The translations under genes and the position numbers were made by a program. A stretch of DNA of 31,310 bases, taken from Rubrobacteraceae bacterium. Its GTDB lineage: Bacteria; Actinomycetota; Rubrobacteria; Rubrobacterales; Rubrobacteraceae. The notes under the pieces were generated by a model. That model saw only the letters and a list, made by a program, of their open reading frames with translations, was not told the origin of the DNA and did not search any database. Shown here piece after piece: positions 13,968-19,785 of this stretch. The stretch spans positions 1 to 31,310 of the forward strand of contig JARDZQ010000001.1 in NCBI GenBank assembly GCA_029240775.1, given 5' to 3'. Each line of letters starts with the position of its first letter. Within the stretch, counting starts at the first letter, position 1.

Positions 13968-14573
13968 ATGTTAGGGGTTCTCCTGGTCTTGTGCGGGTAC
14001 CTGCTGGGCTCCGTGCCCACCGGACTTCTGGTGGGACGGGCCTTTGGCGTGGACGTGCTCGAGGTCGGCAGCGGGAACATCGGGATGGCCAACGTGCTGC
14101 GGGCGGCGGGCAAGTGGCCGGCCGCGCTGACCATGCTCGGGGACATGCTCAAGGGTTTCGTGCCCGTCGTGCTCGCGCGGGCGATCACCGACAACGGGTG
14201 GATCATAGCCGCCGTGGCGATGGCCGCCGTGATCGGCGCGTGCTGGTCGGTGTTCTTGAGATTCAGGGGGGGCAAGGCCGTGGCTACGGGGGCCGGGACG
14301 ACTATAGGGCTCGCTCTGCCCCTCGGGCTTGCGCTCTTCGCGCTGTGGTGGATCGTGGCGCTCACCACCCGCTACACTTCGCTGGCGGCGATCGTGCTGA
14401 TGATCGTGACGCCGTTCGCGTTCCTGGCCACCGGCCAGCCGCTCCCCTACGTGGTCTACACGGTCGCCGGCGGCCTGCTGGTCTTGTGGCGGCACCGGGA
14501 GAACGCGCGCGCGCTGCTCGCGGGCAGGGAGCGGAAGTTCGGCGAGAGGGTGAGGAAGAAGCGTGCTCGCTGA
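13968..14573 (+). CDS. plsY: PlsY-family glycerol-3-phosphate acyltransferase-like membrane protein (divergent)
   Basis: YLLGSVPTG, GSGNIGMANVLR, DMLKG, FRGGKAVAT, RYTSLA, RHRENARALLAGRE. Confidence 0.85.
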   Translation: MLGVLLVLCGYLLGSVPTGLLVGRAFGVDVLEVGSGNIGMANVLRAAGKWPAALTMLGDMLKGFVPVVLARAITDNGWIIAAVAMAAVIGACWSVFLRFRGGKAVATGAGTTIGLALPLGLALFALWWIVALTTRYTSLAAIVLMIVTPFAFLATGQPLPYVVYTVAGGLLVLWRHRENARALLAGRERKFGERVRKKRAR

Positions 14574-16821
14574 GGCCTACCGCGGGAAGTCGGTGCTGCT
14601 CACTGGAGGGACCGGCTTCCTCGGGACGGCGCTCGTCGAGAAGATCCTGCGCAGCCTCCCCGAGCTGGGTCGGCTTTATCTCCTGATCCGGGCCTCCCGT
14701 GAGAAGAGCGCCGCCTCTCGTTTCGAAAAGGACGTGCTGGACTCCGCCGCCTTTCGCGGGCTGCGCGAGGAGAGGGGCGACTCTTTTCGCGATTACGTTG
14801 CGAGCAAGGTGTGCGTGCTCGAAGGCGACGTGCACGCCCCCTCGCTGGGTCTCGGCGAAGAGGACCTCGCCGAGCTCTCGCGCGAGGTGGACGTGGTGAT
14901 CCACTCCGCCGCCTCGGTCGTCTTCGACGCTCCCTTAGACGCCGCGGTCGAGTCGAACGTCCACGGCACTCTAGGTCTGCTCCGGCTCGCGCGCGGTTGG
15001 GAGAAGAGGCCGCTCTTATTGCACGTCTCGACAGCCTACGTCGCCGGCATGCGCGAGGGCTTCGCGCCCGAGAAGCCGCCCGGGAGCCGGTCGCCGAACG
15101 GTACGCCGCTCGACCCCTACGAGGAGGTGTCGCATCTAGAGGGCGTGGTGCGGGAGGTAGAGGAGGCCTCGAGGGAGCGCGCGCTGCTCAGGCGATTCGA
15201 GACGGAGGCCAGGAGAGAGCTCGGGATGGTAGGCGAGGACGAGGAGGTCGCCGAGAGGACGGACCAGCTCAGGCGGGCCTGGGTGCGCGAGCGCCTCGTC
15301 GAGCGCGGTACCGAGCGCGCCCGCGCTCTGGGCTGGCACGACGTCTACACCTTCACCAAGTCGCTAGCGGAACGGATGGTCGTCAGGGAGCGGGGCGAGG
15401 TGCCGCTCATCATCCTCAGGCCGGCGATCATAGAGAGCAGCCAGCACGAGCCTTATCCGGGTTGGATCCAGGGCTCCAGGATGGCAGACCCGATCATCAT
15501 GGCGTTCGCGAAGGGGATCCTGCGCGAGTTCCCCGGCGACCCCGAGAGCCTGGTAGATATCGTACCCGTAGACCACGTCGTGAACGGAACTTTGGCGGCC
15601 GCCGCGAGGCGTCCCGAGGATCCTGAAGTCTTCCAGGTCGCCTCGGGGGACCACAACCCCTTGCGCTACCGCCAGCTCTACGAGCATGTCAGGGAGTACT
15701 TCCTCGAGAACCCGCTGCGCGACTCGGGCGGACGACCGCTGCAGCCCGCGGAGTGGAGCTTCCCCGGCCGCCGGGCCGTGGAGCGCCGGCTCAAGGCGGA
15801 GCTCGCTGGCCTCGAGGTCGCCGGAGTGGTGGTCTCCAGGTTGCCAGAAGGGCACATCACCGCCGATCTGCGTGGCAGGATCGCGCGCGCCGAGAAGCGT
15901 GCCAGGATGAGCCTCTACTACAGCCGCATCTACGGCCCTTACTCCTCGGGGACCGCGACCTTCTCGACGGCCCGGACCCTGGAGCTCTTCGACTCTCTCC
16001 CGCGAGAGGACAGGGAGGAGTTCCCCTTCGACATCGCCGACCTGGACTGGAGAGAGTGGCTGCAGGGGACCCACCTGCCGGCGCTCACGACGCGCCCGAG
16101 CCGCAAGAAGCGCAGGAAGGCGGCCGAGGAGAGGCCCAGGGAGGTGGCGGCGATCTTCGACGTGGACGGCACGCTCGTCGGCTCGAACGTGGTCTCGTAT
16201 TACGCCTGGCTTAAGATGCGCGAGATGCCAGCGGCGACCCGCCCGCTCTGGGCCGCCGGGTTTTTGGCCAAGATCCCCTTCTACTGGGCCCTGGACAAGG
16301 TGAGCCGGGCCCACTTCAACCGCGCGTTCTACAAGAACTACGCTGGCTGGGAGCCCTCCCGCGCCAGACACCTCGGCCAGGAGAGCTTCCCCGGCTTCAC
16401 CCTGAGCCGCATCTACCCCGACGCCCTGGAATGCTTGCGCGAGCACAAGCGGATGGGCCACCGCGTAGTCCTGCTCTCGGGCGCTTTAGACTTCCTCCTC
16501 GACCCGTTCAAGGACCTCGCCGACGATGTGCTCTCCGCCTCGCTCGCCGAGGAGGACGGCGTCTACACCGGAGAGCTCTCCGGGGCGCCGGTAGCGGGCG
16601 AGGCCCGCGCTAGGATGCTCGCCTCCTTCGCCCGCAAGCGGGGCGTGGACCTCGGCCGCTCCTACGCCTACGCCGACTCCATCTCCGACCTGCCGATGCT
16701 CGAGGCCGTCGGCAACCCGGTCGCCGTCAACCCCGACCGCAGGCTCGCCGCGGCCGCGAAGGAGCGCGGCTGGCAGCTGCGGCGCTGGAGCAAGAACGGC
16801 TCCTCCCCAGACAAGGTCTAG
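14563..16821 (+). CDS. Fatty acyl-CoA reductase (extended SDR plus sterile-like domain) fused to a C-terminal HAD-IB phosphatase
   Basis: FAR part: TGGTGFLG, HSAASVVF, HVSTAYV, YTFTK, RPAIIES, FPFD..LDW. HAD part from about 16141: IFDVDGTL, LSGA, AYADSISDLPML, AVNPD. Confidence 0.88.
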   Translation: MLAEAYRGKSVLLTGGTGFLGTALVEKILRSLPELGRLYLLIRASREKSAASRFEKDVLDSAAFRGLREERGDSFRDYVASKVCVLEGDVHAPSLGLGEEDLAELSREVDVVIHSAASVVFDAPLDAAVESNVHGTLGLLRLARGWEKRPLLLHVSTAYVAGMREGFAPEKPPGSRSPNGTPLDPYEEVSHLEGVVREVEEASRERALLRRFETEARRELGMVGEDEEVAERTDQLRRAWVRERLVERGTERARALGWHDVYTFTKSLAERMVVRERGEVPLIILRPAIIESSQHEPYPGWIQGSRMADPIIMAFAKGILREFPGDPESLVDIVPVDHVVNGTLAAAARRPEDPEVFQVASGDHNPLRYRQLYEHVREYFLENPLRDSGGRPLQPAEWSFPGRRAVERRLKAELAGLEVAGVVVSRLPEGHITADLRGRIARAEKRARMSLYYSRIYGPYSSGTATFSTARTLELFDSLPREDREEFPFDIADLDWREWLQGTHLPALTTRPSRKKRRKAAEERPREVAAIFDVDGTLVGSNVVSYYAWLKMREMPAATRPLWAAGFLAKIPFYWALDKVSRAHFNRAFYKNYAGWEPSRARHLGQESFPGFTLSRIYPDALECLREHKRMGHRVVLLSGALDFLLDPFKDLADDVLSASLAEEDGVYTGELSGAPVAGEARARMLASFARKRGVDLGRSYAYADSISDLPMLEAVGNPVAVNPDRRLAAAAKERGWQLRRWSKNGSSPDKV

Positions 16822-16822
16822 G

Positions 16823-18058
16823 GTGCTCGCCCTCCGCTACAGGAAGTCTGTCCCACGCTACCTGCTCATGCGCGCCGGCGCAAAGCGCATAAAGAGTCTG
16901 GAGACGAGCCGCTTCTCCCCCTTGAAGCTCGAAGAGATCCCCGACCCTACCCTCCCGACCTCCGAGTGGGTGCGGGTCAGACCCCTCCTCTCGGGTATCT
17001 GCGGCTCTGACCTTGGCACGCTCTCCTCCGGGAACTCGCCTTACTTCTCCCCGATCACCTCCCCACCCTTCGTCCTCGGCCACGAGGTCGTGGGCGTCGT
17101 TGCCGAAGACAATGGGGCTTTTCACGCGGGCGAGCGGGTCGTCCTCGAACCGGCCCTCGGCTGCGCTGTGCGCAGCATAGAGCCGCCGTGCCGTATGTGC
17201 GCCTCGGGCCGCTACGCCCTGTGCTTGAACGTCGCAAAAGGTGACATCTCGCCTGGCATCCAGACCGGCTTCTGCCGCGACACCGGCGGGGGCTGGTGCG
17301 AAGGTACGCTCGTCGCCCACCCCGCCCAGCTTCACAGGGTCCCGGACGACGTGCCGGACGAGGCCGCTGTCGCGGTGGAGCCGCTCGCCTGCGCGGTCCA
17401 CGCGGCACTGAAGGCAGACCCGGGCCCCGACGAGACGGCGCTCGTGGTCGGGGCCGGCTCCGTAGGCCTCTTCGTCGTCGCGGCGCTGGAGAACCTGACC
17501 CGCGCCGGACGGATAATCTGCGTCGCCAAGCACGATCGGCAGAGGAAGGAGGCCCTCCGCCTCGGCGCCGACGAGGTGGTGCACCCGAAAGACACCTACA
17601 CCACGCTCCCCGCCATGCTCGGCACCGAGGCGTACAGGCCGGAGATAGGCAAGCCCGTCGTCATGGGCGGCGCGGACAAGACCTTCGAGTGCGTCGGAGC
17701 CGCGGGAACGATGGAGGACGCCGTGAGGCTCACCAGGCCCGACGGCCAGGTCGTCCTCGTGGGGATGCCCTCCACGCGCAGCTGCCTCGACCTCACGGCG
17801 TTGTGGCACAAGGAGGTGACCCTCGCAGGCTCCTACGCCTACGGGATAGAGGAGTACGGGGGAGAGGAGATCAAAAGTTTCCAGCTCGCGCTCCGCCTCG
17901 CCCCGGCCGTGGACCTCGCGTCTCTGGTCGGCCCGCGCTTCCGCCTCACAGAGTACCGGGAGGCCATCGCCGCCGCCCGCGCCGCCGGCAGAGAGGGCCA
18001 CGTGAAGGTGGTCTTCGACCATAGAGCCGTTAGCTATGGGCCATCAGCGGTCAGCTAG
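16823..18058 (+). CDS. Zn-dependent medium-chain alcohol/polyol dehydrogenase (MDR family)
   Basis: SGICGSD, LGHEVVG, structural-Zn cysteines GC..PCRMC..ALC, EPLAC, GAGSVG, FECVG. Confidence 0.9.
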   Translation: MLALRYRKSVPRYLLMRAGAKRIKSLETSRFSPLKLEEIPDPTLPTSEWVRVRPLLSGICGSDLGTLSSGNSPYFSPITSPPFVLGHEVVGVVAEDNGAFHAGERVVLEPALGCAVRSIEPPCRMCASGRYALCLNVAKGDISPGIQTGFCRDTGGGWCEGTLVAHPAQLHRVPDDVPDEAAVAVEPLACAVHAALKADPGPDETALVVGAGSVGLFVVAALENLTRAGRIICVAKHDRQRKEALRLGADEVVHPKDTYTTLPAMLGTEAYRPEIGKPVVMGGADKTFECVGAAGTMEDAVRLTRPDGQVVLVGMPSTRSCLDLTALWHKEVTLAGSYAYGIEEYGGEEIKSFQLALRLAPAVDLASLVGPRFRLTEYREAIAAARAAGREGHVKVVFDHRAVSYGPSAVS

Positions 18059-18207: not shown

Positions 18208-19785
18208 ATGAGCCGTCCCGGTTTCACGACCATCCTGGACAAGAGCAGCCCTCCGATGATGTTTAACGCGGGGGACGGGTTCCACTACGAGAAGCTCCCC
18301 GAGGGGACGCGGGTAGTCTATCCTCCGGGCTCCCTCACGCCGCTCGCGGATCCCGGCGTCGCCATCGAGCGGGCGCTGCTCGAACCTTTTGCGATGGAGC
18401 CGCTGCACGAGCTATTGCGTCCCGGAATGAAGCTCACCATCGCCTTCGATGACCTCTCGATCCCGCTTCCACCCATGCAGGCCCCGGACAACCGCCAGCT
18501 CATAGTGGAGAAGGTGCTGGAGAAGGCATACGCGAAAGGCGTCGAGGACATCCACCTTATAGCCGCCCTTGGGTTGCACCGCAGGATGACGAGGGCGGAG
18601 ATCCACCACATGCTCGGGAAGAGTATCGTCAATCGCTTCTACCCTGAGAGGCTCTACAACTACGACGCAGAGGACGAGGAGAACCACGTAACGATAGGCG
18701 AGACCGAGCGCGGCGAGGAGGTGCGGGTAAGCCGCCGCGTCGCCGAGAGCGACCTGCTGGTCTATATAAACGTCAACTACATCCCGATGGACGGCGGCCA
18801 CAAGTCCGTCCACACCGGCCTCTCGCCCTACTCCTCCATCCGCCACCACCACAACCCGGAGACGCTGGAGCACACGCGCTCTTTGATGGACCCGCCCAAC
18901 TCCGCGATGCACGGCTCCATAGACAGGATGGGCCGCATCTTCGACGAGAACGTCAAGGTCTTCCACATAGAGACGACCCTGAACAACGCCTCTTACCCGC
19001 ATGTCTTCGACTTCATGGCGAAGCCCGAGCACGAGTGGAACCCGGTTACCCGCGCGAACTTCCTCGCGAACCACGGGGCGACGCGCTCGATGCCGCGCCG
19101 GGCCGCCCGCAAGGTCTTCCAGAGCATCAAGGCCCCGCACAAGATGACGAGCGTGCAGGCCGGCGCTACCGACCCCGTCCACGCCGAGACTCTCAAGCAC
19201 ACCTACCGCCAGCAGCTCGTGCCCGTCGAGGGGCAGTCCGACGTGGTGTTGCTCGGCGTCCCGTACCTGGGGCCCTACAACGTCAACTCCGTAATGAACC
19301 CGCTGCTGGTCATGAACATGCTGCTCGGCTACCTCTTCAATTTGTACAGGGGCAAGCCGCTCGTGCGCCGGGGCGGGGTCCTCATCGGGACCCACCCCAT
19401 GCCCGAGGAGTTCCACGAGATCCACCATCCATCGTACATAGACCTCTGGAACGAGGTGCTTCCTGAGACCACCGACCTGTACGAGATCGCCGGCCGCTAT
19501 GAGGAGAGGTACGCCTACGACCCCTGGTACCGCACCCTGTACCGTAACTCCTACGCCTACCACGGCGTCCACCCCTTCACCGTGCTCTACTGGGCGGCCC
19601 ACGCCATGGAGCACCTCGGGGACGTAATCGTGGTCGGCGGCGACCCGAAGACCACCAAGCGCCTCGGCTTCAAGCGCTCGGATACGGTGGCCGAGGCGCT
19701 CGAGATGGCGCAGGACACCGTCGGCCCGAGCCCGAGCACCACCTACATGCACATACCGCCGCTCTTTATCTGCGAGGTGAGCTAG
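18208..19785 (+). CDS. Lactate racemase (LarA/DUF2088) domain protein, 525 aa
   Basis: AAGGGAG SD; PLHELLRPGMKLTIAFDD, IAALGLHRRMT, NYDAED, VSRRVAESDL, GGHKSV.TG, SIRHHH. Confidence 0.75.
   Translation: MSRPGFTTILDKSSPPMMFNAGDGFHYEKLPEGTRVVYPPGSLTPLADPGVAIERALLEPFAMEPLHELLRPGMKLTIAFDDLSIPLPPMQAPDNRQLIVEKVLEKAYAKGVEDIHLIAALGLHRRMTRAEIHHMLGKSIVNRFYPERLYNYDAEDEENHVTIGETERGEEVRVSRRVAESDLLVYINVNYIPMDGGHKSVHTGLSPYSSIRHHHNPETLEHTRSLMDPPNSAMHGSIDRMGRIFDENVKVFHIETTLNNASYPHVFDFMAKPEHEWNPVTRANFLANHGATRSMPRRAARKVFQSIKAPHKMTSVQAGATDPVHAETLKHTYRQQLVPVEGQSDVVLLGVPYLGPYNVNSVMNPLLVMNMLLGYLFNLYRGKPLVRRGGVLIGTHPMPEEFHEIHHPSYIDLWNEVLPETTDLYEIAGRYEERYAYDPWYRTLYRNSYAYHGVHPFTVLYWAAHAMEHLGDVIVVGGDPKTTKRLGFKRSDTVAEALEMAQDTVGPSPSTTYMHIPPLFICEVS

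What the first reader, a model, noticed from the sequence alone, without database searches (positions are those of the whole stretch)
14563..16821. Fatty acyl-CoA reductase fused to a HAD-IB phosphatase
Seen: one 752-aa frame with intact FAR motifs (TGGTGFLG, YTFTK), a basic linker (SRKKRRK) and a HAD domain (DVDGT, LSG, ADSISD). The usual motif III Lys appears as Arg (GEARAR). Known: HAD-IB domains are more often fused to PlsC-type acyltransferases. Inference: the fusion couples alcohol production to dephosphorylation of a lipid-phosphate intermediate (an alkyl- or acyl-glycerophosphate).
Basis: partly seen in the sequence, partly recalled or inferred. Interest (0 to 1): 0.65.

Follow-up and report, generated by a model that had tools for sequence, protein, structure and literature searches.

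The report
Ether-lipid reductase–phosphatase fusion gene
This gene joins a fatty-acyl reductase to a phosphatase and is a standard part of a Rubrobacter and actinobacterial gene cluster related to the myxobacterial "elb" ether-lipid genes; the fusion is real and widespread, but what the phosphatase half acts on is still unknown.

Summary
Its motif III residue is Arg, not Lys.

It is not a local artefact. The fused gene is single copy in every Rubrobacteraceae genome searched. It is present, nearly always full length, in 109 of 401 sampled Actinomycetota genomes.

It sits in a translationally coupled cluster: PlsY / FAR-HAD / Zn-MDR dehydrogenase / LarA-like nickel-pincer enzyme. The FAR-HAD, dehydrogenase and LarA-like trio persists at 40-45% identity, with PlsC instead of PlsY.

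In Myxococcales, Polyangiaceae and Acidobacteriota the same parts occur as HAD (ElbB) - LarA-like (ElbC) - ElbD (FAR-ACS-ACP-AGPAT). So this protein is the ElbD reductase domain fused to an ElbB-type phosphatase. It belongs to an elb-type 1-O-alkylglycerol ether-lipid pathway, in a family whose membranes are largely ether lipids.

Lys-to-Arg is a single-origin signature of the fused clade.

This scan has reached the same elb reading on several other genomes. A putative Rubrobacter ether-lipid operon is, as I recall, already in print. Verdict: new variant of a known kind, moderate interest.

The parts
13968..14573 (+). plsY (glycerol-3-phosphate 1-O-acyltransferase). It is the only PlsY in the genome and overlaps the FAR-HAD start by 11 nt.
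   Evidence: Pfam PF02660 7e-48. TIGR00023 161 bits against a cut-off of 137. PDB 5xj5 3.5e-36. Single copy in G000, G015, G016 and G011. Adjacent to FAR-HAD in all 9 Rubrobacteraceae loci inspected.
14563..16821 (+). FAR-HAD fusion gene, 752 aa plus stop.
   Evidence: AF2 model mean pLDDT 86.6.
14563..16092 (+). FAR half (res 1-510): extended-SDR acyl-CoA/ACP reductase with a FAR C-terminal domain. It carries TGGTGFLG at 14602-14625, Ser156 and YTFTK at 15346-15360.
   Evidence: PF07993 1e-67. PDB 7eoz (rice DPW FAR) 9e-82, aligned to residue 510. Foldseek TMt 0.83. T14, G15, G18, S156, Y262 and K266 are invariant in 27 fused homologues at 34-89% identity.
16093..16131 (+). Basic, disordered inter-domain linker (res 511-523, containing SRKKRRK).
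   Evidence: pLDDT below 50 for residues 511-523. Length and sequence vary among homologues.
16132..16818 (+). HAD-IB half (res 524-752). Motif I FDVDGT is at 16156-16173 (nucleophile D533). Motif II is S639. Motif III R682 is at 16606-16608. Motif IV D705..D709 is at 16675-16689. A helical C1 cap spans res 543-616.
   Evidence: TIGR01490 132 bits against a cut-off of 98. PF12710 4e-35. PDB 3fvv 3e-13, with R682 aligned to its Lys. Foldseek 3fvv TMt 0.83. D533, R682, D705 and D709 are invariant.
16823..18058 (+). Zn-dependent medium-chain dehydrogenase (polyol / polyol-phosphate dehydrogenase-like). It starts 2 nt after the FAR-HAD stop.
   Evidence: ADH_N plus ADH_zinc_N. The best NCBIfam hits (idonate, inosose, threonine and galactitol-1-P dehydrogenases) are all far below cut-off. 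Syntenic in Rubrobacteraceae and in distant actinobacteria at 44-51% identity. Found next to ElbD+HAD in L027 and L028 at 43-48% identity.
18208..19785 (+). LarA-like nickel-pincer-nucleotide enzyme, the positional counterpart of ElbC.
   Evidence: NCBIfam NF052592 (LarAH14/15/16) 853 bits against a cut-off of 740. PDB 9q2u 7e-41. It is 43-50% identical to the gene between the HAD gene and ElbD in myxobacterial and acidobacterial loci. It co-occurs with FAR-HAD in 104 of 109 genomes.

Best explanation
The gene encodes a bifunctional enzyme of an elb-type (ElbD-pathway-like, aerobic) 1-O-alkylglycerol ether-lipid pathway.

The N-terminal half is an NADPH-type fatty acyl-CoA/ACP reductase of the alcohol-forming FAR fold. 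It supplies the fatty aldehyde or alcohol that becomes the sn-1 alkyl chain. This is inferred from homology.

The C-terminal half is a catalytically intact HAD-IB phosphohydrolase descended from the same lineage as the separate ElbB-type HAD genes that sit beside ElbD. It most likely removes the phosphate from a glycerophosphate-based lipid intermediate, with 1-O-alkyl(-2-acyl)-sn-glycero-3-phosphate as the best guess. This is inferred from domain-fusion logic, not shown.

The protein works with three partners. PlsY makes 1-acyl-G3P and is the only sn-1 acyltransferase of the PlsY type in these genomes. A Zn-MDR dehydrogenase and a LarA-like nickel-pincer enzyme (the ElbC counterpart) are the candidates for the still unknown ether-forming and C2-redox steps.

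What is shown: the architecture, the conservation of both active sites, the synteny, the co-occurrence, and the relationship to elb-type loci. What is inferred: all substrates and the order of the steps.
For: 1. Both halves keep their catalytic residues across 27 fused homologues down to 34% identity: TGxxGxxG, S156, Y262 and K266 in the FAR half; D533, R682, D705 and D709 in the HAD half, with a Ser or Thr at the motif II position (639) in every aligned sequence.

2. The fused gene is single copy in 24 of 24 Rubrobacteraceae genomes. It is present in 109 of 401 sampled Actinomycetota genomes, nearly always as a match over residues 1-749.

3. Synteny. PlsY-FARHAD-ADH-LarA-like is conserved in Rubrobacteraceae. 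FARHAD-ADH-LarA-like followed by a PlsC-type acyltransferase is found in two distant actinobacterial loci (L020, L021) at 40-45% identity; L022 has the same three-gene core, but its downstream gene was not examined.

4. Co-occurrence. 104 of 109 FAR-HAD genomes also have the LarA-like orthologue.

5. ElbD-architecture proteins (FAR-AMP-binding-PP-binding-Acyltransferase) are among the closest relatives of the FAR half, at 40-45% identity. In 9 of 14 ElbD-type loci with a FAR hit, the order is HAD - LarA-like - ElbD, and two more loci lack only the HAD hit. In 2 loci the order is ElbD - HAD - MDR-ADH (Pfam). This matches the published elbB (HAD-like) - elbC (unknown) - elbD order (PMC9131029).

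6. HAD tree. The fused HADs form one group (SH-aLRT 91-95) next to the ElbD-adjacent HADs. They are separate from other actinobacterial HAD-IB paralogues, including a HAD-PlsC fusion.

7. Related architectures FAR-ACS-HAD (P0128) and FAR-AGPAT (P0168) put HAD and the sn-2 acyltransferase at the same position.

8. Rubrobacterales have about 46% ether-linked core lipids (PMC10821996, citing Sinninghe Damste 2023).

9. No WS/DGAT was found in three complete Rubrobacteraceae genomes, so wax esters are an unlikely sink for the alcohol.
Against: No biochemical or genetic data exist for this protein.

In M. xanthus the elbB disruption phenotype was attributed to polar effects on elbD. In addition, only an aldehyde, not an alcohol, was linked to ElbD (PMC9131029).

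Rubrobacter polar lipids are phospholipids. A terminal dephosphorylation of alkyl-acyl-G3P would therefore require a Kennedy-type head-group route, which I did not look for.

Motif III is Arg instead of Lys in the whole fused clade. This is tolerated elsewhere in the HAD superfamily (my knowledge, not tested here) but could signal altered chemistry.

The tree does not resolve whether the myxobacterial ElbB clade is the sister of the fused clade.

I compared with Myxococcales, Polyangiaceae and Kofleriaceae MAG loci of ElbD architecture, not with the M. xanthus records themselves.
Confidence: 0.6

Rival explanations
1. The pathway is the same, but the HAD half has a different job. It would be a head-group-maturing phosphatase, for example a phosphatidylglycerol-phosphate phosphatase acting on ether-PGP, rather than a phosphatase of alkyl(acyl)-G3P.
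For: Rubrobacter lipids are phospholipids, so a PGP-type phosphatase is needed somewhere. HAD-superfamily PGP phosphatases exist (Gep4, PGPP1; my knowledge). HAD-IB is repeatedly fused to PlsC-type acyltransferases (L107), which is compatible with a general phospholipid-assembly role.
Against: This does not explain why the HAD is tied specifically to the FAR, ElbD and ElbC genes rather than to pgsA or cdsA. The fused HADs form a clade with the ElbD-adjacent HADs, separate from the HAD-PlsC paralogue.
Confidence: 0.15
2. The HAD half acts at the ether-forming step itself, or is a non-hydrolytic module. It might bind, hold or trans-phosphorylate a G3P- or DHAP-derived intermediate so that the FAR product is captured. 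The Arg-for-Lys change would mark this altered chemistry.
For: Arg at motif III is invariant in the fused clade and maps to one change on the tree. The domain is fused directly to the FAR domain. The ether-forming enzyme of the elb route is unknown (PMC9131029). The partner LarA-like enzyme is a hydride-shuttling type, and LarC and LarE are present.
Against: The nucleophile Asp, the acid/base Asp or Glu, the motif II Ser/Thr and both motif IV Asp residues are all retained, as expected for an ordinary phosphatase. Lys-type HADs serve in the same kind of cluster, both as ElbB-like genes and in P0128 and P0129.
Confidence: 0.15
3. The protein is a FAR for free fatty alcohol or wax-ester production, with a fused HAD of unrelated housekeeping function. 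One such function would be histidinol-phosphate phosphatase, suggested by the neighbouring his genes.
For: hisF, hisIE and trpE lie just upstream. The HAD half hits the histidinol-phosphatase models NF052360 and NF052359.
Against: Those hits score 80 and 69 bits against cut-offs of 280 and 400. The his/trp neighbourhood is confined to Rubrobacteraceae and is absent from the distant loci that keep the fusion. No WS/DGAT was found in G000, G015, G016 or G011. The conserved partners are lipid-assembly and elb-type genes.
Confidence: 0.04

Closest known systems
Myxococcus xanthus elbA-E ether-lipid operon: ElbD = FAR-ACS-ACP-AGPAT, ElbB = HAD-like, ElbC = unknown function (Lorenzen et al. 2014, as reviewed in PMC9131029)
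   Same: The FAR half is most similar to the N-terminal FAR domain of ElbD-architecture proteins, at 40-45% identity in the representative search and 29-35% in the genome loci. An ElbB-type HAD-IB is 35-43% identical, and a LarA-like gene (ElbC position) is 43-50% identical. All three are linked in the same cluster.
   Different: There are no acyl-CoA synthetase, ACP or AGPAT domains. The HAD is fused to the FAR instead of being a separate gene. Acylation is by a separate PlsY (Rubrobacteraceae) or PlsC (other actinobacteria). A Zn-MDR dehydrogenase stands where the M. xanthus operon has SDR-type ElbA and ElbE. Motif III is Arg rather than Lys.
Eukaryote-type alcohol-forming fatty acyl-CoA reductases (rice DPW, PDB 7eoz; mammalian FAR1)
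   Same: They share the NAD_binding_4 Rossmann domain with a TGxTGFxG motif, a Ser...YxxxK catalytic set and the FAR C-terminal domain. The match to 7eoz is 31% identity, E = 9e-82, TMt 0.83.
   Different: This protein carries a C-terminal HAD-IB domain and has no C-terminal membrane anchor. Its activity and product (aldehyde or alcohol) are untested.
HAD-IB subfamily TIGR01490 (structure 3fvv, Bordetella pertussis, function unknown) and phosphoserine phosphatases SerB/PSP
   Same: The fold, the C1 helical cap and motifs I, II and IV are shared. The score is above the TIGR01490 cut-off.
   Different: Motif III is Arg, not Lys. The domain is fused to a FAR. It scores below the cut-offs of the SerB and histidinol-phosphatase equivalog models.
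HAD-superfamily lipid-phosphate phosphatases: lipin/Pah1 PA phosphatases and the N-terminal phosphatase domain of soluble epoxide hydrolase (from my knowledge; not compared here)
   Same: They are a precedent for DxDxT enzymes that dephosphorylate PA, LPA and other lipid phosphates. In soluble epoxide hydrolase the phosphatase is also fused to a second lipid-metabolising domain.
   Different: They belong to different HAD subfamilies. No sequence or structure comparison was run, so this is an analogy of function only.

Membership tests
Alcohol-forming fatty acyl-CoA reductase (FAR; NAD_binding_4 + FAR_C/Sterile) | Rossmann NAD(P)-binding motif TGxTGFxG | tested here: met
   TGGTGFLG at res 14-21. 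T14, G15 and G18 are invariant in 27 homologues. PF07993 1e-67.
Alcohol-forming fatty acyl-CoA reductase (FAR; NAD_binding_4 + FAR_C/Sterile) | Catalytic Ser...YxxxK | tested here: met
   S156, Y262 and K266 are invariant. YTFTK aligns with YVFTK of rice DPW.
Alcohol-forming fatty acyl-CoA reductase (FAR; NAD_binding_4 + FAR_C/Sterile) | C-terminal FAR (Sterile) domain | tested here: inconclusive
   Pfam PF03015 scores 31.1 bits, below its 35.4 cut-off. However, the phmmer alignment to 7eoz runs to residue 510, and Foldseek covers the whole DPW chain with TMt 0.83.
Alcohol-forming fatty acyl-CoA reductase (FAR; NAD_binding_4 + FAR_C/Sterile) | NADPH-dependent reduction of acyl-CoA/ACP to fatty alcohol | not testable with these tools
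   This needs an enzyme assay.
HAD-IB hydrolase, TIGR01490 / PF12710 | Score above the curated cut-off | tested here: met
   TIGR01490 scores 132.4 against 98.3. TIGR01488 scores 60.5 against 45.
HAD-IB hydrolase, TIGR01490 / PF12710 | Motif I DxDxT (nucleophile plus acid/base), motif II Ser/Thr, motif IV DxxxD | tested here: met
   FDVDGT is present with D533 invariant, and position 535 is D or E in homologues. A Ser or Thr occupies the motif II position (639) in all 17 sequences aligned. D705 and D709 are invariant.
HAD-IB hydrolase, TIGR01490 / PF12710 | Motif III Lys | tested here: not met
   R682 aligns with the Lys of 3fvv and SerB. Arg is found in 24 of 26 fused representatives where the position is aligned. 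Lys is found in ElbB-like HADs and in paralogues.
HAD-IB hydrolase, TIGR01490 / PF12710 | C1 helical cap inserted after motif I | tested here: met
   The AF2 model has helices at 543-616 between strand 529-533 and strand 634-642. 3fvv matches with TMt 0.83.
elb-type bacterial ether-lipid gene cluster | ElbD-type FAR domain | tested here: met
   The nearest non-fused relatives of residues 3-510 include FAR-AMP-binding-PP-binding-Acyltransferase proteins at 40-45% identity.
elb-type bacterial ether-lipid gene cluster | ElbB-type HAD and ElbC gene linked to the FAR | tested here: met
   The order HAD - LarA-like - ElbD is seen in 9 Myxococcota and Acidobacteriota loci. The HAD domain is 32-43% identical and the LarA-like protein 43-50% identical. 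Pfam confirms both. The tree places the fused HADs beside the ElbD-adjacent HADs. The M. xanthus records themselves were not compared.
elb-type bacterial ether-lipid gene cluster | Acyl-CoA synthetase + ACP + AGPAT domains on the same polypeptide (ElbD proper) | tested here: not met
   Only the FAR and HAD domains are found. PlsY is a separate gene. This is therefore not an ElbD orthologue in the strict sense, but a rearranged variant of the cluster.
elb-type bacterial ether-lipid gene cluster | Host makes alkyl ether glycerolipids, and the gene is required for them | not testable with these tools
   Literature only: about 46% ether-linked core lipids in Rubrobacterales (PMC10821996, citing Sinninghe Damste 2023). 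There are no genetic data.
HAD-IB histidinol-phosphatase (NF052360 / NF052359) | Score above the equivalog cut-off | tested here: not met
   80.1 bits against 280, and 68.9 bits against 400.

The most novel reading that the evidence does not exclude
FAR-HAD, the LarA-like nickel-pincer enzyme (ElbC counterpart) and the Zn-MDR dehydrogenase together form a flavin-independent, AGPS-independent alkylglycerol-phosphate synthase. In this reading, PlsY-made 1-acyl-G3P is transiently oxidised at C2 by hydride 'borrowing' on the nickel-pincer cofactor. The acyl group is then exchanged for, or reduced to, the FAR-derived alkyl chain, and the hydride is returned. The Arg-type HAD would act directly on this intermediate rather than as a terminal lipid phosphatase. 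The fusion would then mark the physical core of the long-sought ether-bond-forming machine of aerobic bacteria.
Probability: 0.12. Interest if true: 0.85.

Novelty: new variant of a known kind. Interest (0 to 1): 0.45.

Why it matters
How aerobic bacteria make the ether bond through the ElbD route is unsolved. Only ElbD's ACS and ACP activities have been shown, and the roles of ElbB and ElbC are unassigned (PMC9131029).

This fusion is a Rosetta-stone link. It says the ElbB-type phosphatase belongs functionally with the reductase. In a quarter of the sampled Actinomycetota the pathway is reduced to a small, separable set of genes: FAR-HAD, an MDR dehydrogenase, a LarA-like enzyme, and PlsY or PlsC. 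That set could be reconstituted in vitro or in a heterologous host.

It also predicts ether lipids in many actinobacterial families where, to my knowledge, none have been reported. That matters for interpreting alkylglycerol biomarkers and for the 'lipid divide' debate.

The annotation currently given by the sources, 'HAD-IB family hydrolase' or 'fatty acyl-CoA reductase', describes only half of the protein.

Tried and rejected
- I obtained context from the genome search, the fetch from genomes and the search for related loci instead.
- **Key paper not held.** Sinninghe Damste et al. 2023 (Syst Appl Microbiol 46:126404) is not held. My statement that it reports a putative Rubrobacter operon for 1-O-alkylglycerol phosphate rests on my memory of the abstract and is unverified.
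- **Two recollections dropped.** The CDP-inositol/BEPIS route, which needs a dephosphorylated ether lipid, was described in Rhodothermus marinus, not Rubrobacter (PMC4587543). The 1,2-diol lipids belong, as far as I recall, to Thermomicrobium, not Rubrobacter. Neither is used as evidence.
- **Histidinol-phosphatase reading rejected.** The scores are far below cut-off, and the his neighbourhood is not conserved outside Rubrobacteraceae.
- **Wax-ester reading rejected.** No WS/DGAT was found in three complete Rubrobacteraceae genomes.
- **'Fusion = assembly artefact' rejected**.
- **Whole-model Foldseek** found no solved two-domain template. It returned only separate FAR-like and HAD-like hits. 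Inter-domain geometry and active-site distances could not be read, because model coordinates are not exposed.
- **Promoter and terminator scan** gave nothing above chance inside the cluster.
- **AGPS homologue** (the classical alkyl-DHAP synthase) was not searched for, because I had no specific model or query.
- **Script returned unrun.** I reran it reading the sequences from files.
- **Loci not used.** L108 and L109, from the unpublished genome G025, were fetched but not used.


Full report
**Observation**

window:14563-16821:+ is a single 752-aa frame with a GTG start. The opposite strand is closed.

- Pfam finds NAD_binding_4 at 13-341 (1e-67) and HAD PF12710 at 530-714 (4e-35). The Sterile/FAR_C hit at 450-502 is just under its threshold.
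- NCBIfam places the C-terminal part in HAD-IB subfamily TIGR01490, above the curated cut-off (132 against 98).
- The N-terminal 510 residues align end to end with the solved rice FAR 'DPW' (7eoz, 9e-82, YTFTK on YVFTK).
- The C-terminal part aligns with 3fvv and the SerB phosphatases, where R682 falls on their motif III Lys.
- An AlphaFold2 model built on 27 homologues is confident (mean pLDDT 86.6) except for the basic linker 511-523 and the last residues.
- Foldseek returns DPW for the first half and 3fvv for the second, each with TMt 0.83, and no two-domain template.

**Is the fusion real and general?**

Source names of near-identical proteins (Rubrobacteraceae, Rubrobacter sp.) identify the organism as a Rubrobacteraceae MAG. 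The assembly has 533 contigs and is 77% complete.

- More than 120 clusters at 77-98% identity all have about 750 aa and both domains.
- In whole genomes the fused gene is single copy in 24 of 24 genomes of the same family (23 of 23 without the unpublished G002).
- It is found in 109 of 401 genomes sampled across the phylum (71 of 248 genera), almost always as one match over residues ~1-749. Five of these genomes (G103, G108, G165, G238, G329) are unpublished; without them the count is 104 of 396.
- More distant fused forms occur at 34-44% identity, one of them named Chloroflexota by its source.
- Fused forms also occur in Granulicoccus phenolivorans (L076) and another actinobacterium (L079), where one open frame spans both hits.

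Across 27 fused sequences the catalytic residues of both halves are invariant: T14/G15/G18, S156, Y262 and K266 in the FAR half, and D533, R682, D705 and D709 in the HAD half. The second acidic residue of motif I is Asp or Glu. Both halves are therefore under selection as enzymes. The 'local artefact' alternative is excluded.

**Surroundings**

- Upstream lie hisF, hisIE, trpE and a luciferase-like fragment.
- Next comes plsY (13968-14573), which overlaps the FAR-HAD start by 11 nt.
- Downstream, 2 nt after the stop, is a Zn-dependent MDR dehydrogenase (16823-18058).
- Then comes a 525-aa LarA-like protein (18208-19785), followed by NhaA.

PlsY-FARHAD-ADH-LarA-like is conserved in all Rubrobacteraceae loci examined. 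In three distant actinobacterial genomes (40-45% identity) the core FARHAD-ADH-LarA-like persists without the his/trp genes or PlsY. In the two of these examined downstream (L020, L021), a PlsC-type acyltransferase follows. One of them also has a YhhN-family gene, an SDR and TetR regulators nearby.

plsY here is the only PF02660 gene in G000 and in three complete relatives, and plsX lies elsewhere.

Across the 401-genome sample, 104 of the 109 FAR-HAD genomes also carry the LarA-like orthologue. Five have FAR-HAD only, and three of those are 62-71% complete. Sixteen have a LarA-like match only, and 14 of those belong to a lower-identity (39-44%) subgroup. Related genomes are not independent, so I give counts, not a test.

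**Relation to the known elb system**

In the all-against-representatives search, the closest relatives of the FAR half beyond the fused proteins are multidomain proteins:
- FAR-AMP-binding-PP-binding-Acyltransferase, which is the ElbD architecture;
- FAR-AMP-binding-HAD (P0128);
- FAR-Acyltransferase (P0168).

I scanned species genomes with an alignment of ElbD-like proteins and then searched the loci with the window's proteins. This gave two arrangements.
- Nine loci from Myxococcales, Polyangiaceae, Kofleriaceae, Bradymonadaceae and Acidobacteriota have the order HAD - LarA-like - ElbD. Two more lack only the HAD hit.
- Two loci (an Acidobacteriota and a Phycisphaerae MAG) have ElbD - HAD - MDR dehydrogenase.

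Pfam confirms the HAD, Lar_N and ADH assignments. The published M. xanthus operon is elbA (SDR), elbB (HAD-like), elbC (unknown), elbD (FAR-ACS-ACP-AGPAT) and elbE (SDR). ElbD is required for alkyl and vinyl ether lipids (PMC9131029).

So the Rubrobacter protein is the ElbD reductase domain fused to an ElbB-type phosphatase. The LarA-like neighbour is the positional counterpart of ElbC. The ACS, ACP and AGPAT domains are missing, and separate PlsY or PlsC genes supply the acylation.

Rubrobacterales are reported to have about 46% ether-linked core lipids (PMC10821996, citing Sinninghe Damste et al. 2023; the title is also cited in PMC11181052). As I recall, that paper already mentions a putative operon for 1-O-alkylglycerol phosphate resembling that of other aerobic bacteria. 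I could not read it.

**The HAD half in detail**

- All 19 directly fused HADs aligned have Arg at motif III.
- All 11 stand-alone ElbD-adjacent HADs have Lys, as do the two HAD-IB paralogues of this genome.
- Among 50%-identity representatives the count is 24 Arg and 2 Lys. The two with Lys are P0128 (FAR-ACS-HAD) and P0129, a 793-aa fused protein.
- On a maximum-likelihood tree the Arg-type domains form one group (SH-aLRT 91-95) and need a single Lys/Arg change.
- Their nearest neighbours are the ElbD-adjacent HADs of the two ElbD-HAD-ADH loci, plus P0128 and P0129.
- The myxobacterial-type ElbB clade (99) and the other actinobacterial HAD-IB paralogues (98-99) are separate. The paralogue clade includes a HAD-PlsC fusion. 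The order of these three lineages is unresolved.

The Arg is thus a clade signature, not decay. The retained nucleophile, acid/base and motif IV residues argue for a working phosphoryl-transfer site.

**How it most likely works**

- *Shown:* the architecture, the conservation, the synteny, the co-occurrence and the kinship to elb loci.
- *Inferred from family knowledge:* the FAR half reduces acyl-CoA/ACP with NADPH to a fatty aldehyde or alcohol.
- *Inferred from fusion logic:* HAD and AGPAT occupy the same C-terminal position in related architectures, and HAD-IB is recurrently fused to PlsC. This suggests the HAD half acts next to the sn-2 acylation step. It would be a Mg-dependent phosphatase of a glycerophosphate lipid, most likely 1-O-alkyl(-2-acyl)-G3P.

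The ether-forming step itself is probably not in this protein.

The candidates for that step are the LarA-like enzyme and the MDR dehydrogenase.
- The LarA-like protein scores above the cut-off of the NCBIfam LarAH14/15/16 model.
- Its nearest solved relatives are LarA-like nickel-pincer enzymes.
- It is the only Lar_N gene in two complete relatives that nevertheless encode LarC and LarE.
- A LarAH14 member showed no activity on the 2-hydroxyacids tried (PMC7583248).
- The MDR dehydrogenase's weak best matches are polyol and polyol-phosphate dehydrogenases.

**Rivals**

The rivals considered are a head-group (PGP-type) phosphatase; a HAD that takes part in, or merely scaffolds, the ether-forming step; and an unrelated FAR-plus-housekeeping phosphatase. 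The last is disfavoured by sub-threshold histidinol-phosphatase scores, by the non-conserved his neighbourhood and by the absence of WS/DGAT in three complete Rubrobacteraceae genomes.

**Novelty and score**

- The elb system is known, and the Rubrobacter operon is probably already noted in print.
- This scan has independently reached the same elb reading on several other genomes and on this window's LarA-like gene.
  - its breadth in the phylum;
  - the single origin of the fused HAD clade, with its Lys-to-Arg signature;
  - the finding that plsY beside it is the sole PlsY;
  - the near-complete co-occurrence with the LarA-like gene.

I file it as a new variant of a known kind, of moderate interest. 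The open and valuable question is the chemistry of the pathway, for which this compact gene set is a good experimental entry point.

**Limits**

- There are no experimental data.
- The M. xanthus records themselves were not compared.
- AGPS and Kennedy-type transferases were not searched for.
- The tallies include unpublished genomes: G002, and G103, G108, G165, G238 and G329. No claim depends on them alone.

Noticed in passing
window:18208-19785:+: The LarA-like protein scores above the NCBIfam LarAH14/15/16 equivalog cut-off (853 against 740 bits). It is the only Lar_N gene in two complete Rubrobacteraceae genomes that still encode LarC and LarE. By position it corresponds to ElbC of myxobacterial elb clusters (43-50% identity).
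   Followed up: partly
window:13968-14573:+: In this window and its closest kin (L023, L026), PlsY has GMAN for GTAN and GACWS for GHxWP at positions conserved in Aquifex PlsY (5xj5). The other seven Rubrobacteraceae PlsY sequences examined keep the canonical residues. The change is therefore lineage-specific and not a feature of the cluster. PlsY is single copy in these genomes.
   Followed up: partly
window:13018-13842:+: This ORF matches only the middle of the luciferase-like monooxygenase profile (positions 96-213 of 314). It lies between trpE and plsY, and no tblastn match to it was returned in any relative's locus. It may be a gene remnant.
   Followed up: no
L020:9329-9964:- and L020:9971-10879:-: In a distant actinobacterium (G032), a YhhN-family membrane protein and an SDR sit just upstream of the FAR-HAD operon, with TetR regulators on both sides. 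YhhN is the family that includes lysoplasmalogenases (my knowledge).
   Followed up: no
L027:10001-16197 and L028:10001-16797: Two ElbD loci (an Acidobacteriota and a Phycisphaerae MAG) have ElbD - HAD - MDR dehydrogenase with no LarA-like gene within the fetched flanks. This suggests two cluster types in which the MDR enzyme and the LarA-like enzyme may substitute for each other.
   Followed up: partly
P0128 (1223 aa) and P0168 (839 aa): Further architectures occur in the same FAR family: FAR-AMP-binding-HAD (with Lys at motif III) and FAR-Acyltransferase. HAD and AGPAT occupy the same C-terminal position.
   Followed up: partly
14 genomes listed (e.g. G053, G097, G163), mostly family f24: A subgroup of LarAH14-like proteins at 39-44% identity occurs in genomes that gave no FAR-HAD match. 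This is a related nickel-pincer enzyme in some other context.
   Followed up: no
L026 (G012:C7:880243-894498): In this relative, the LarA-like gene, trpE, hisIE and hisF each come back as several pieces. This points to frameshifts or assembly errors in that genome rather than biology.
   Followed up: no
window:21381-23632:-: Two adjacent ORFs of about 380 aa have no Pfam match at E <= 0.001.
   Followed up: no
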